Source: the human T2T-CHM13v2.0 reference genome, Homo sapiens
NCBI RefSeq assembly: GCF_009914755.1
Contig: NC_060926.1
Strand: one strand, 5' to 3'
Length of the DNA stretch: 64,000 nucleotides
Positions 4,014 through 33,537 of this stretch are shown piece by piece. The translations under genes and the position numbers were made by a program. The notes below the pieces were generated by a model. The model saw only the letters and a program-made list of their open reading frames with translations. It did not search any database and was not told the origin of the DNA. Each line of letters starts with the position of its first letter. Position 1 is the stretch's first letter.

Positions 4014-4685
4014 ATTCTAATATGCAAGCTTTATCACACTTCAATATATCTGGAATTACTATTCTCTTTATTACTGATAAGAGTTTAGGTTCAGGCCCGG
4101 CGCTGTGGTTCACGTCTGTAATCCCAGCACTTTGGGAGGCCAAGGCAGGCTAATCACCTGAGGTAAGGAGTTCGACACCAGCCTGGCCAACATGGTGAAG
4201 CCCTGTCTCTAGAAAAATACGAAAATTAGCTGGGCGTGTTGGTGTGCTCCTGCAATCCCAGCTACTCGGGAGGCTGAGGCAGGAGAATCGCTTGATCCCA
4301 GGAGGCAGAGGTTGCGGTGAGCTGAGACCAAGCCATTGCACTCCAGCATGGGCAACAAGATTGAAACTCCATCTCAAAAAAAATAGATAAATATATAAAA
4401 CTTTAGGTTCAATAAAATGTTAATTGAACTTTCCTTTCACATAGGAAAAGTTGTTAGCATTTGCTAAGTTGTACCTTTCCTTGATATTTCCACATTAATA
4501 TTTCTCTTTTCTAGGAGTCTCTACGAGAATATATGGCATGTTCAACTCCTTTACACTGTTTTTTAAACATGTGTTGCATGTATGTTCTGCTTTCAATATT
4601 AAAAAAACAAACTGTTTTGGAGCAGGAGTTTCCTCTTCTGTGCATTTTGGTATTCCATAGAGTACCAAAGTTAGAAATAGAGCCA
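4014..4685 (+). repeat. Left arm (probable source) of a ~670-bp inverted duplication
   Basis: Reverse complement of 5535-6209. Manual alignment gives about 17 substitutions and 3 small indels. Confidence 0.97.
4094..4395 (+). mobile_element. Alu, AluS (Sq/Sp-like), full length
   Basis: Dimeric Alu ending ggcaacaagattgaaactccatctc plus A-tail. Degenerate TSD aagagtttaggttca / aaaactttaggttca. Confidence 0.95.
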
Positions 4686-5249
4686 GAGTTAGAAATGAAG
4701 TAACAAGCTCAATAAATTACTCTTGAGTTGACTTGACAGGTGTCAGTGGGGTGCTACGCTATTCAGAATTTCCTTTTCCAATGGCAAAATTCAGCTAAAT
4801 GTCTATTTCTTGAGTCTCTGTTTTGTTGGCTAATTGGCTATTAGAGTAAACAGAAATATCATCTGTATAATCAAAATTCTAACAGGATAGGAAGGGACAG
4901 GGAAATATTCTTTAAGGAAATGAATAAGAGTGAAAAGGTTACTGAAGAAAGAGACACAGAGAATAAATGTCTTCACTACAAATACACAGCATTAATAGAC
5001 ATGAGCAGGGCACGAGCTGCCTAAATGTTTATTATATTTCCTTTTCCAGATGAGCTCTTTCCTTTTCCTTTTCAAACTGGCTTATTGTAGATCATGACTA
5101 AATATTAGAAAAATAACATCAGAAACGTGAGGAAGTTCAAAAGACCCACATTATATAATAAGATGACTTAAAAAATACATTTTGAAATATGCACATGTAA
5201 AACAAACTTACCAAAATGTTACACTGAGTGTTCTTCTGAATACATAATA

Positions 5250-5534
5250 AAATATATATGTATACATATATATGTTTGTACATATATGTATGTATGTATA
5301 TATACATATATGTATGTATATATGTATGTATATGTGCATATATACATACATATATGTATATGTGTATGTATATGTGTATATATACATACATGTGTGTATA
5401 TATGTATATATGCACACATGTGTGTATATATGCATACATATGTGTATATATGCACGTGTATATATGTATATATGCACACATATATGTGTATATATGTATG
5501 TATATATATACACACATATATACGTACATATATA
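5250..5534. repeat. Compound (TA)n/(TATG)n/(CA)n microsatellite
   Basis: About 285 bp of almost purely alternating purine-pyrimidine sequence. It is the source of the six overlapping Y/I/H/M/C/V-rich ORFs. Confidence 0.95.
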
Positions 5535-6209
5535 TGGCTCTATTTCTAACTTTGGTACTCTATGGAATACCAAAATGCGCAGAAGAGGAAACTCCTGCTC
5601 CAAAACAGTTTGTTTTTTTTAATATTGAAAGCATAACATGCATGCAACACATGTTTAAAAAACAGTGTAAAGGAGTTGAACATGCCATATATTCTCGTAG
5701 AGACTCCTAGAAAAGAGAAATATTAATGTGGAAATATCAAGGAAAGGTACAACTTAGCAAATGCTAACAACTTTTCCTATGTGAAAGGAAAGTTCAATTA
5801 ATAACATTTTATTATACCTAAAGTTTTATATATTTATTTATTTTTTTGAGATGGAGTTTCAATCTTGTTGCCCATGCTGGAGTGCAATGGCTTGGTCTCA
5901 GCTCACTGCAACCTCTGCCTCCTGGGATCAAGCGATTCTCCTGCCTCAGCCTCCCGAGTAGCTGGGATTGCAGGAGCACACCAACACGCCCAGCTAATTT
6001 TTGTATTTTTCTAGAGACAGGGCTTCACCATGTTGGCCAGGCTGGTGTCGAACTCCTTACCTCAGGTGATCAGCCTGCCTCGGCCTCCCAAAGTGCTGGG
6101 ATTACAGGCGTGAACCACAGCGCCCGGCCTGAACCTAAACTCTCATCAGTAATAAAGAGAATAGAAATTCCAGATACAATGAGGTGTGATAAAGCTTGCA
6201 TATTAGAAT
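5535..6209 (-). repeat. Right arm (inserted copy) of the inverted duplication
   Basis: Reverse complement of 4014-4685, with TA microsatellite on both sides (5250-5534 and 6210-6256). Confidence 0.97.
5828..6129 (-). mobile_element. Alu (duplicate of the 4094 AluS, not an independent insertion)
   Basis: Shares private variants (gaggtaaggagttcgacacc, gtgaagccctg, gtgtgctcctgcaat) and both flanks with the 4094 Alu. Confidence 0.95.
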
Positions 6210-6256
6210 ATATGTGTATATATGTATACATATATGTATGTTTATATCTACATATA
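6210..6256. repeat. Distal remnant of the TA/TATG microsatellite
   Basis: atatgtgtatatatgtatacatatatgtatgtttatatctacatata. Confidence 0.85.
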
Positions 6257-7310
6257 GTAGATATAAAATAGTAAAAAATTTATAGGCATGCAACAACAAC
6301 AGAGTTCATTAGTCTGCATACTTAGCAAGTTGATTTAAAAATTTAGACTCTCAGACTTTGATCTGCAGAAGGGTATCCTGGTCCTGAACACTCAAAGGTA
6401 GCCAGACCTTGGTGCTTTTTGGACTTGGGTAATAACAGACAGCTGAAACCGAAACCTTCCCTAGAACAATTGTGTCTACAGTTCCCTTCACACTTCTAAT
6501 GTGTATAAAAATCACATGAATTATTTTAAACTAATGGCCACAACTTGGATAAATAAAATGCAAGAAATGAAAATCAGAGACTTTTCTCTCAAATTTATTC
6601 CTATTAAATCAGTACATCTTTGGTTCAGAAACCACTGTGAAATTTCAAGAATGCATAACATAGTCAGTACTATTTATAGCAATTTATAAAATACACTACC
6701 TAAGCATATAATATGGGATATTACAATATAGAATAATGGGAACACATCGCATTGTTAGCCCTGATTCAAAGCAAAATGAATAAAAGGAAAGTCATACTTT
6801 TTCCTTGTTCAGAATTTGTCTTTCAAAGTCAAAGCAAAGACACGAACTGATCTAACTCATATAGTGTCTTGAATATTTCTGGAATATTTATGCATGGCAG
6901 AGTTTATTCCAGAGACTATCACATGGAGCAAAATACAAAATAAAGGGGGAAGCTACTCTGCACAGAGCTCTGTAAATTTTTTGGGAATGTTGCACTAAAG
7001 AGATTCCAAGACAGCCCTCTGATATCCTGCCCCAAGAACACCCAACTCAATCTGCTAAATGCAAATTTCACTCATAAAGGCTATGTGGGGAATTCAGACG
7101 AGAAGTTTAAGAGAAGGGCCAAAAGGAAACCAAAAGACTGGGGAAGGAAATTAACCAAGTTCCAGAGCAATTTGCGAACCAGTGAATTAGGAAGAGCTGC
7201 TAAATAATTGGGTAGACATAAAAGCACAAGCTCTCTGGAGGTCAAAAAGAGATAAGGTTCAGAAATAAGGTGTGTGGAGATTTCATGAAGGAGCCCCTTT
7301 GAATTACTTC

Positions 7311-7554
7311 TTTTTTTTTTTTTGAAATGGAGTCTTGCTCTGTTGCCCAGGCTGGAGTGCAGTGGCACAATCTCGGCTTACTGCACCCTCCGCCTCCTGG
7401 GTTCAAGTGATTTCCAGCTAATTTTTGTATTTTTAGTAGAGACAGGGTTTCACCATGTTGGCCAGGCTGGTCTCGAACTCCTGACCACAAGTGATCTGCC
7501 TGCCTCGGCCTCCCAAAGTGCTAGGATTGCAGTCCTGAGCCACCGCACCTGACC
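7311..7554 (-). mobile_element. Alu (AluSz/Sx-like) with ~50-bp internal deletion
   Basis: gggttcaagtgattt is joined directly to ccagctaattttt. TSD tgaattacttctttt at 7300-7314 and 7555-7569. Confidence 0.92.
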
Positions 7555-32036: not shown

Positions 32037-32343
32037 GGCCGGGTGCAGTGGCTCATGCCTGTAATCCCTACACTTTGGGAGTCTGAGGCAGGAGGATCAC
32101 CTGAGGTCAGGAGTTCGAGATCAGCCTGGCCAACATGATGAAATCCCATCTGTACTAAAAACGCAAAGAATTAGCTGGACATGGTGGTGCATGCCTGTAA
32201 TCCCAGCTACTCAAGAGGCCAAGGCAAGAGAGTCACTTGAACCCAGGAGGCGGAGGTTGCAGTGAATTGAGAGATTGTGCCACTGCACACCACCCTGGGC
32301 AACAAGAATGAAAATCTGTCTCAAATAATAATAATAATAAGAA
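32037..32343 (+). mobile_element. Alu (AluSq/Sx-like) inserted into the tail of the preceding Alu
   Basis: Full dimer with (TAA)n tail. aaagtaaataaata before and aaagtaaaataaata after act as a TSD. Confidence 0.9.
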
Positions 32344-32736
32344 GAAAGTAAAATAAATAAATAAATAAACAAACTATACCCTAGAACAAATGGACTTAAT
32401 AGATATTTACAGAGCATTTTACTCAACAACTGCAGTATATACGTTCTATTCATCAGCACATGCAACATTCTCCAAGATAGACCATAAGATAGGCCACAAA
32501 ACAAGTCTCAAGTAATTTAAGTAAATTGAAATTATATCAAGTACTCTTTCAGACCAAAGTGGAATAAAATTGGAAATCAACTCCAAAAGGAACCCTCAAA
32601 ACCATGCAAATACATGGAAATTAAATAACCTGCTCCTGAATGATCATTGGGTAAACAAGAAAATCAAGATTGATATTAAAAATTCCTTGAAGTGAACAAT
32701 AATAGTGATGCCATCTATCAAAACCTCTGGATACAT

Positions 32737-32850
32737 AGTAGTATTCCATTATATATATGAGATATCATATATATATATCTCATATATATATATATACCAC
32801 AGATTATTTATATACTCATTGATTGATCAGCATTTGGTCTGGTTCCATAT
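32737..32850 (-). mobile_element. L1PB-like piece B (end of ORF2, inverted, with internal TA tract)
   Basis: agtagtattccatt...ccacagattatttatatactcattgattgatcagcatttggtctggttccatat. Confidence 0.75.
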
Positions 32851-32926
32851 GTATATAGTATATAATACATACTATATGTGTGTGTGTGTATATGTGTATA
32901 CATATATATATATAAAATGAAATACT

Positions 32927-32997
32927 ATTATGTTAATTTTCTAATTCACATCTACTTTGACCTTACTGATGTTGTTTTTCTATTCTATCAGCAGCTA
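32927..32997 (-). repeat. 71-bp inverted copy of 31204-31274 embedded in a TA microsatellite
   Basis: Reverse complement tagctgctgatagaatagaaaaacaacatcagtaaggtcaaagtagatgtgaattagaaaattaacataat versus the source: 6 mismatches, no gaps. Confidence 0.92.
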
Positions 32998-33537
32998 TAT
33001 ATACACATACACATATAGAAAATGGAATATATATAAAATATTATATATAGTAGGATATATATAAAATATATAATGTATATAATGGATATAGATATAGATA
33101 TAGATATATATTTTATATAATATATATTATATATTATATATAATATATGTTATATATATTATATATTTTATATAATATATATATTATATAAATTATATAT
33201 ATATAATATATAATATATATATTATATATATTTTATATAATATATATTTAATATTATCTATTATATATTTTATATAATATATATTTTATATAATATATAA
33301 TATATAATATATATTTTACATAATATATAATATATAATACGTATTATATATAATATATAATACGTATTTTATATAATATATAATACGTATTATATATAAT
33401 ACGTATTATATATTATATAATATATAATACGTATTATATAATATACGTAATTATATTTTATTATAATACGTATTATATATTATATAATATATAATACGTA
33501 TTATATTATGTATATTATAAATATATAATGTATATAT
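32998..33537. repeat. Long AT-rich low-complexity tract with a tandem palindromic unit
   Basis: About 540 bp, almost only A/T. Eight TACGTA cores at ~33333-33505, mostly within the palindrome tataatacgtattata. Confidence 0.95.

What the first reader, a model, noticed from the sequence alone, without database searches (positions are those of the whole stretch)
4014..33537. Recurrent pattern: TA microsatellites as sinks for inverted copies of upstream neighbouring DNA
Seen: the two longest TA-rich tracts in the window (5250-6256 and 32851-33537) each contain an inverted copy of sequence within 2 kb to their left, at different divergence (~2.5% and ~8%), so they are independent events. Inference: this may be a general, under-catalogued germline mutational process in which fork stalling at TA hairpins triggers a switch to the opposite-strand template and a return, creating new inverted repeats. 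The shared left-donor polarity could reflect local replication direction. Two events are suggestive only. This is my best candidate for a 'system' here.
Basis: inference. Interest (0 to 1): 0.75.

Follow-up and report, generated by a model that had tools for sequence, protein, structure and literature searches.

The report
Backwards DNA copies land in TA repeats
Two long TA-repeat stretches in this piece of human DNA each hold a back-to-front copy of nearby sequence, and 2 of 30 other TA repeats checked do too, likely scars left when DNA copying stalls or breaks at these hairpin-prone repeats.

Summary
Observation confirmed. 5535-6209 is the reverse complement of 4014-4685 (96.7%), and 32927-32997 of 31204-31274 (65 of 71). 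Each has only its local partner as a second genome hit. Event 2 is not a clean insert: it is one junction of a scrambled L1 whose pieces switch strand at the L1's own TA run. I tested generality on other parts of the genome. 2 of 30 TA loci carry an inverted local copy touching the tract, against 0 of 10 CA loci and 0 of 11 L1 loci at the focal site. Permutation p is 0.003-0.009, but the locus-level Fisher p is 0.51, so this is suggestive only. One inverted Alu-to-Alu conversion and four short hairpins lie away from TA. All four donors lie to the left, which is not significant (p=0.125), and fork direction could not be tested. Best reading (0.6): template switching during restart or repair at hairpin-forming TA tracts. 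The product class (inverted duplications with microhomology) and TA fragility are both published. A germline preference of such copies for TA tracts did not turn up in 10 literature searches. Verdict: new variant of a known kind.

The parts
4014..4685 (+). Event 1 donor arm: unique DNA plus a whole Alu (about 4094-4385) with its target-site duplication (4084-4093 and 4402-4411)
   Evidence: non-Alu part has 2 genome hits
5244..5536 (.). Left degenerate TA/TG/CA tract; folds into long hairpins as single-stranded DNA
   Evidence: 5236-5536 folds at -71.7 kcal/mol, z -2.6, 2 of 100 shuffles as good
5535..6209 (-). Event 1 inverted copy, 96.7% to donor; junction overlap with the tract only about 2 bp; no poly(A) end, TSD or terminal inverted repeats
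6208..6265 (.). Right remnant of the same kind of TA tract
31004..31572 (+). Old host L1 ORF2-like DNA containing the event 2 donor
   Evidence: weak colinear alignment to L1 loci, 55-56% identity
31204..31274 (+). Event 2 donor
31578..32735 (+). Younger L1 (L1PB-like; family name recalled) piece B, positions 1333-1866 of L021, split by two Alus
32737..32850 (-). Inverted L1 3' piece C1, including an expanded TA run (32750-32796) and a 21-bp inverted duplicate of 33531-33551
32851..32926 (.). TA/TG-rich filler left of the copy
32927..32997 (-). Event 2 inverted copy of 31204-31274, 65 of 71
32998..33537 (.). Longest TA-rich tract, 94% AT over 33021-33537, at the L1's internal TA site
33538..33758 (+). 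L1 3' piece C2, cut before the L1 end; no poly(A)
33759..34289 (-). L1 piece A (positions 649-1217 of L021), inverted and placed last; host L1 resumes at 34290, about 205 bp further on in the reference than where it stopped

Best explanation
Both long TA tracts hold a back-to-front copy of DNA from 0.85-1.65 kb to their left, likely made when DNA synthesis stalled or broke at the hairpin-prone tract, jumped to the nearby opposite strand and then returned to the tract. Shown: the copies, their local single-copy donors, TA-rich DNA on both sides, junction overlaps of about 2 bp, and no retrotransposon or transposon hallmarks. Inferred steps: (1) the TA tract was there first and formed a hairpin or cruciform; (2) a 3' end left in the tract annealed by microhomology to single-stranded DNA nearby and copied 71-676 nt in reverse; (3) the end came back easily because TA repeats are self-complementary and offer homology in either orientation, so an excursion that might otherwise give a fold-back chromosome is healed as a small insertion. 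In event 2 the same kind of break probably drove several jumps in one chain (B+, C1-, host 71 bp inverted, C2+, A-), with loss of L1 and host DNA. This fits microhomology-mediated template switching (MMBIR/FoSTeS, or synthesis-dependent end joining); which polymerase acted is unknown.
For: Window events. Independent cases: L014, 198 bp at 97.5%, abutting a (TA)n run, including about 50 bp of non-Alu DNA; and L038, 77 bp at 89.6%, between two TA runs, 2 genome hits. Inverted events next to TA 4 of 4 vs direct events 1 of 7 under the filter (Fisher p=0.015; independent set 2/2 vs 1/6, p=0.11). Permutation p=0.003 over all 51 independent loci and 0.009 over TA loci only; p=0.009 when two dropped non-TA inverted features are added. 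In event 2 the inverted piece C1 carries a TA run of about 47 bp where L029 has about 17 bp, which fits TA expansion before copying. Published: AT/TA repeats form cruciforms, stall polymerase and break (PMC12972899 passages); breaks at TA repeats are repaired by MMEJ, with small duplications enriched there (PMC13645644 passages); germline inverted duplications, median 284 bp, mostly show 1-15 bp microhomology (PMC12350158 passages).
Against: Locus-level contrast is not significant (2/30 vs 0/21, p=0.51; 95% interval for 2/30 is 0.8-22%). The other long TA-rich tracts in the sample (L035, L037, L046, L063, L068) have no such copy. The window tracts lack long pure TA runs (10 and 15 bp at most). 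Inverted copying also occurs away from TA: an 83-bp identical stretch between inverted Alus in L058 and four short palindromes (L047, L062, L067, window 56720). A direct local copy of about 185 bp sits in an Alu in L060 with no TA tract. No ancestral empty site was seen, so 'TA first' and the donor/copy polarity of event 1 are inferred. Event 2 cannot be dated apart from its L1 (6/71 vs 12.2% L1 pairwise mismatch, P=0.22).
Confidence: 0.6

Rival explanations
1. TA is a consequence or a bystander. Inverted duplications form anywhere in AT-rich DNA by ordinary template switching, and TA-rich DNA grows at the junctions afterwards, or as slippage filler during repair.
For: Small sample; locus-level test not significant. 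In L060 a CA run appears to have grown inside a direct copy after it formed. Short-range template switches are enriched in AT-rich DNA in general (PMC7954356 passages).
Against: In event 2 the TA site is native to the L1 (short TA run in L029) and was itself copied in inverted form. Only 1 of 7 direct local copies touches TA, although these should gain junction TA just as readily.
Confidence: 0.2
2. Event 2 arose during L1 integration (remodelling of the endonuclease break, twin priming, target-site deletion), so only event 1 and the outside cases reflect a TA process.
For: The donor lies about 300 bp from the left end of the L1 composite; about 205 bp of host is missing and no TSD is evident; ages are not separable. 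L1 insertions with local genomic inversion or inverted duplication are described (10.1101/2024.12.14.628481 passages).
Against: The composite has no poly(A) and its inverted pieces do not sit 5' of a polyadenylated piece, as twin priming gives (PMC12016303 passages). Several junctions fall at the L1's internal TA run, which appears already expanded. Events 1 and L038 show no flanking L1 insertion.
Confidence: 0.13
3. The copies are RNA-templated insertions (retrocopies of local transcript) or cargo of a TA-targeting DNA transposon.
For: The window lies in a lncRNA gene (hub annotation). Tc1/mariner elements insert at TA (recalled).
Against: No terminal poly(A), no TSD and no terminal inverted repeats at either copy. 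Event 1 carries a whole Alu with both TSDs and flanks. Donors are within 2 kb in all four cases, which dispersed retrocopying does not predict.
Confidence: 0.04

Closest known systems
Germline inverted duplications in long-read SV catalogues (Schloissnig et al. 2025, PMC12350158; passages read, supplements searched)
   Same: Small inverted copy, median 284 bp, 1-15 bp microhomology, replicative origin proposed; the commonest non-MEI inversion class (277 of 733).
   Different: The passages read and a supplement search showed no link to TA tracts. The window events are old (2.5% and 8.5% diverged), not shown to be polymorphic.
TA-repeat fragility and MMEJ repair in cancer cells (PMC13645644 passages; PMC13738482 first sixth plus passages; PMC12972899 passages)
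   Same: TA-rich tracts as break sites; small duplications attributed to templated insertion by MMEJ; template switching raised as an option.
   Different: Somatic or yeast settings, with loss of FANCM, Pol theta or WRN. Outcomes are deletions, small duplications and long-range joins. PMC13738482 required non-translocation events to span at least 10 kb. No inherited inverted copies of the flank appeared in what I read.
Local n-jumps, such as loss plus inverted duplication (PCAWG, PMC7025897 passages); MMBIR/FoSTeS
   Same: Event 2 is a deletion plus inversion plus inverted-copy chain on one haplotype.
   Different: Here it is about 3 kb, germline and centred on a TA run within an L1.
Short-range template switching in apes (Walker et al. 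2021, PMC7954356 passages)
   Same: Switch to the opposite strand and back; AT-rich context.
   Different: That study filters out RepeatMasker-masked donors and low-complexity fragments. Jumps here are 0.4-1.7 kb and land in microsatellites.
Fold-back inverted duplication at breaks (PMC10622511 abstract; PMC11724301 search listing only; PMC13334657 abstract)
   Same: Inverted synthesis primed on nearby sequence by microhomology.
   Different: Those give hairpin-capped or dicentric chromosomes, 5-34 bp inserts, or small triplications with about 30-bp spacers. Here the spacer is 0.4-1.7 kb and the chromosome continues normally.

Membership tests
Local inverted duplication (SV class) | Copy is the reverse complement of nearby sequence | tested here: met
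Local inverted duplication (SV class) | Donor is the local locus, not a dispersed repeat | tested here: met
   2 genome hits each; the search scores only best candidates
Local inverted duplication (SV class) | Blunt or 1-15 bp microhomology junctions, no long homology | tested here: met
   about 2 bp overlap, no long homology; exact length needs the empty allele
Local inverted duplication (SV class) | An empty allele exists in people or apes | not testable with these tools
   no ape or pangenome sequence available
TA-repeat fragile site (cruciform, nuclease cleavage) | Tract can form stable hairpins | tested here: inconclusive
   left tract -71.7 kcal/mol, z -2.6; but pure TA runs are only 10-15 bp
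TA-repeat fragile site (cruciform, nuclease cleavage) | Breaks map to the tract in cells | not testable with these tools
   needs END-seq data
TA-targeted inverted copying as a general process | Enrichment at TA tracts over controls | tested here: inconclusive
   permutation p 0.003-0.009; Fisher 2/30 vs 0/21 p=0.51
TA-targeted inverted copying as a general process | Donor side follows fork direction | not testable with these tools
   4 of 4 left on the + strand, p=0.125; no OK-seq data
L1 retrocopy / TPRT insertion | Poly(A) tail and target-site duplication at the copy | tested here: not met
L1 twin-priming inversion | Inverted 5' piece joined to a polyadenylated 3' piece | tested here: not met
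   order B+, C1-, C2+, A- with no poly(A)
Tc1/mariner-type TA-target transposon | Terminal inverted repeats on the insert | tested here: not met
   insert ends are unrelated

The most novel reading that the evidence does not exclude
TA microsatellites are the main landing sites for inherited inverted copies of DNA from the neighbouring 0.3-2 kb. Because TA is self-complementary, a fold-back excursion can always return, so several per cent of long TA tracts (hundreds of sites in the human genome) carry such a scar. This would be a germline fossil record of TA cruciform breakage that SV and template-switch catalogues miss because they mask simple repeats.
Probability: 0.45. Interest if true: 0.65.

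Novelty: new variant of a known kind. Interest (0 to 1): 0.48.

Why it matters
If true, it links the somatic fragility of TA repeats (WRN, FANCM, Pol theta biology) to ordinary germline evolution. It would explain where part of the commonest non-retrotransposon inversion class comes from. It would give hundreds of dated natural events for asking whether donors lie behind the fork, how far a 3' end can jump and which repair route acts. The copies also create near-identical inverted repeats, 676 bp here, which may themselves be unstable. It is directly testable with existing T2T ape genomes and pangenome calls. No gene function is implied.

Tried and rejected
Assembly artefact: rejected, as the arms differ by 17 substitutions with a transition and CpG pattern. 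Two independent Alu insertions for event 1: rejected, as identity runs through about 380 bp of non-Alu DNA and both TSDs. Dispersed L1 fragment for event 2: rejected, as the only other hit is local. The 29025-29804 / 39796-40564 inverted pair (88.8%) is two separate L1 3' ends, not a local duplication. Polarising event 1 by mutations was inconclusive: at 6 of 6 Alu differences the TA-embedded arm holds the majority base of 94 other Alu hits, but one may be a subfamily CpG site (recalled), and that arm has the damaged TSD. Searches for an old repeat spanning the event 1 flanks found only self hits. A gapped pattern for long degenerate TA tracts gave only 8 distinct loci in 100 rows and was not used. 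An 18-mer flank test missed L038 and gave 7 inverted hits at 542 random sites; the exhaustive list shows that such non-TA inverted matches are Alu pairs and one short palindrome. The larger planned sample could not be obtained, so the test rests on 30 TA, 10 CA and 11 L1 loci with 1.5-2 kb flanks.
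Full report
1. Observation. The window is human chr2 (hub annotation; one search gives its place in G000). Self-alignment shows 5535-6209 as the reverse complement of 4014-4685: 676 columns, 96.7%, 17 substitutions of which 12 are transitions and 4 are at CpG. It carries a whole Alu with both target-site duplications plus about 380 bp of non-Alu DNA, and the part 4400-4700 has only 2 hits in the genome. TA-rich DNA starts within 2 bp of both ends. 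32927-32997 is the reverse complement of 31204-31274, 65 of 71 with no gaps, again with 2 genome hits. These are the two longest of the 11 TA tracts called in the window. The divergences differ (16/676 vs 6/71, p=0.013), though the short copy's interval is 3-17%.

2. Event 2 is more than an insert. Mapping on 11 related L1 copies (L021-L031, from the 40 scored of 4543 candidates; family L1PB-like by recall) gives, left to right: old host L1 to 31572; piece B forward (31578-32735, reference 1333-1866, split by two Alus); piece C1 inverted (32737-32850); TA filler; the 71-bp host copy inverted; the long TA tract; piece C2 forward (33538-33758); piece A inverted (33759-34289, reference 649-1217); and host again from 34290, about 205 reference bases further on. 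The host alignment is weak (55-66% identity). C1 and C2 are neighbours in L029, separated by a TA run of about 17 bp; in the window the inverted C1 carries about 47 bp of TA-rich DNA and a 21-bp inverted duplicate of the C2 start. There is no poly(A). At least 1.5 kb of L1 between B and C1 is gone. A single reading fits (inference): an L1 first lay on the minus strand, and synthesis jumped five or six times between strands, several times at its TA run. In that layout the 71-bp donor would have been under 1 kb from the tract. The L1's pairwise mismatch (12.2%) does not differ from 6/71 (P=0.22), so a rearrangement at integration is not excluded.

3. Independent test. TA loci: the first 27 distinct tracts among the 100 listed of 158 matches to a CC(TA)12 pattern, plus 3 tracts (12 overlapping duplicate loci dropped). 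Controls: the first 10 of 100 listed of 566 CC(TG)16 matches and the 11 L1 loci (L020, the window's own, dropped). Flanks were 1.5-2 kb, so more distant donors are missed. Local matches of at least 28 bp and 80% identity, not simple sequence, not self-overlapping, and not explained by matches in other loci, gave 12 rows, 11 events. Inverted: the two window events, L014 and L038. In L014, 1302-1499 copies 737-934 at 193 of 198, with about 50 bp of non-Alu DNA; it abuts a long (TA)n run on one side and a CT/TA/GA run on the other. In L038, 1883-1959 copies 303-379 at 69 of 77, an 11-mer extends the donor to 292 across a short unexplained insert, TA runs lie on both sides, and the genome holds 2 hits. 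Direct: 7 events, 1 touching TA (L065) and 2 touching CA (L058, L060). Random placement puts both independent inverted events within 20 bp of TA with p=0.003 (all loci) or 0.009 (TA loci only); a looser null gave 0.017 and 0.045. Inverted 4/4 vs direct 1/7 gives p=0.015, and the independent part alone p=0.11. By locus, 2/30 vs 0/21 gives p=0.51, with a 95% interval of 0.8-22% for TA loci.

4. Results against. The filter dropped an 83-bp identical stretch between two inverted Alus in L058, which looks like gene conversion and is not near TA, and four short palindromes away from TA (L047, L062, L067, window 56720). Adding L058 and L047 leaves P(at least 2 of 4)=0.009; adding the other three was not computed. 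Five long TA-rich tracts in the sample have no copy. L060 shows a direct local copy inside an Alu with no TA tract. All four donors are to the left on the + strand, p=0.125. No ancestral allele was available.

5. Mechanism. Shown: local, inverted, DNA-level copies with about 2 bp junction overlap and without poly(A), TSD or terminal repeats. The left tract of event 1 folds at -71.7 kcal/mol (z -2.6), though pure TA runs are now only 10-15 bp. Inferred: the tract came first, stalled or broke, and its 3' end copied the opposite strand nearby before returning. Return is easy because TA anneals to TA in either orientation, which would explain why inverted rather than direct copies concentrate there. 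Fork restart (MMBIR/FoSTeS) and synthesis-dependent end joining give the same product; 676 nt is long for Pol theta inserts (recalled), which favours a processive polymerase for event 1. Confidence 0.6. Rivals: TA secondary (0.2), L1-integration origin of event 2 (0.13), retrocopy or transposon (0.04).

6. Known work. Germline inverted duplications are catalogued: 277 events, median 284 bp, mostly 1-15 bp microhomology (PMC12350158, passages; a search of its 3 supplement files found no 'TA repeat' or 'microsatellite'). TA repeats break and are repaired by MMEJ with small duplications (PMC13645644, passages). Native TA-rich tracts rearrange without WRN (PMC13738482, part 1 of 6 and passages). 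AT cruciform processing is described in yeast (PMC12972899, passages). Local n-jumps are described in cancer (PMC7025897, passages). Ape short-range switches favour AT-rich DNA, but masked and low-complexity donors were filtered out (PMC7954356, passages). L1 breaks can yield local inverted duplications (10.1101/2024.12.14.628481, passages; bioRxiv supplements not seen). PMC10622511 and PMC13334657: abstracts only. PMC12016303: passages. PMC11724301: listing only. Ten searches listed no paper whose title or abstract start states a germline preference of inverted local copies for TA tracts; two strict searches returned 0 papers. The library lacks most subscription papers, so this is weak evidence of absence.

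7. Verdict. The general claim has modest independent support and is cheap to settle. The side-bias and fork-direction idea is unsupported so far. New variant of a known kind; interest 0.48.

Noticed in passing
window 39698-39808 and 40575-40684: A 111-bp direct repeat at 90% brackets a minus-strand L1 3' end (39796-40564): an unusually long target-site duplication.
   Followed up: partly
window 29025-29804 and 39796-40564: Two separate L1 3' ends in inverted orientation, 88.8% alike, 10 kb apart; not a local duplication.
   Followed up: yes
window 4400-4430 vs 5795-5825: The arms differ by a clustered 2-bp change and a 3-bp indel at a short palindrome next to the Alu TSD; 5 more substitutions cluster in 4040-4079. 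Possibly error-prone synthesis or short template switches.
   Followed up: no
window 4670-4696: A 10-bp direct repeat straddles the right end of the event 1 donor.
   Followed up: no
L060:760-909 and 1863-2047: A direct copy of about 185 bp from 1.1 kb upstream is inserted inside an Alu; a CA microsatellite lies within the copy where the donor has an A-rich run.
   Followed up: partly
L058:2991-3286 and 3571-3861: Two inverted Alus share 83 identical bases at their tails and about 87% overall, as expected of recent gene conversion.
   Followed up: partly
L014:1235-1310: A self-complementary CT/TA/GA run sits between an Alu tail and the inverted copy, like a frozen fold-back centre.
   Followed up: partly
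L047:2477-2587; L062:3350-3436; L067:3641-3709; window 56720-56773: Short imperfect palindromes away from TA tracts; short-range template switches or transposon remnants.
   Followed up: no
L068:1658-1869; L065:1894-2070: Tandem duplications near TA tracts: 106 bp at 96% lying 110 bp from the tract, and a short unit repeated three times with the TA run expanded in one copy.
   Followed up: no
L048, L049, L063 (around 2000): These TA tracts share similar flanks, apparently an internal TA site of an LTR family (THE1/MST-like, recalled), so some TA tracts are seeded by repeats, as in the window's L1.
   Followed up: no
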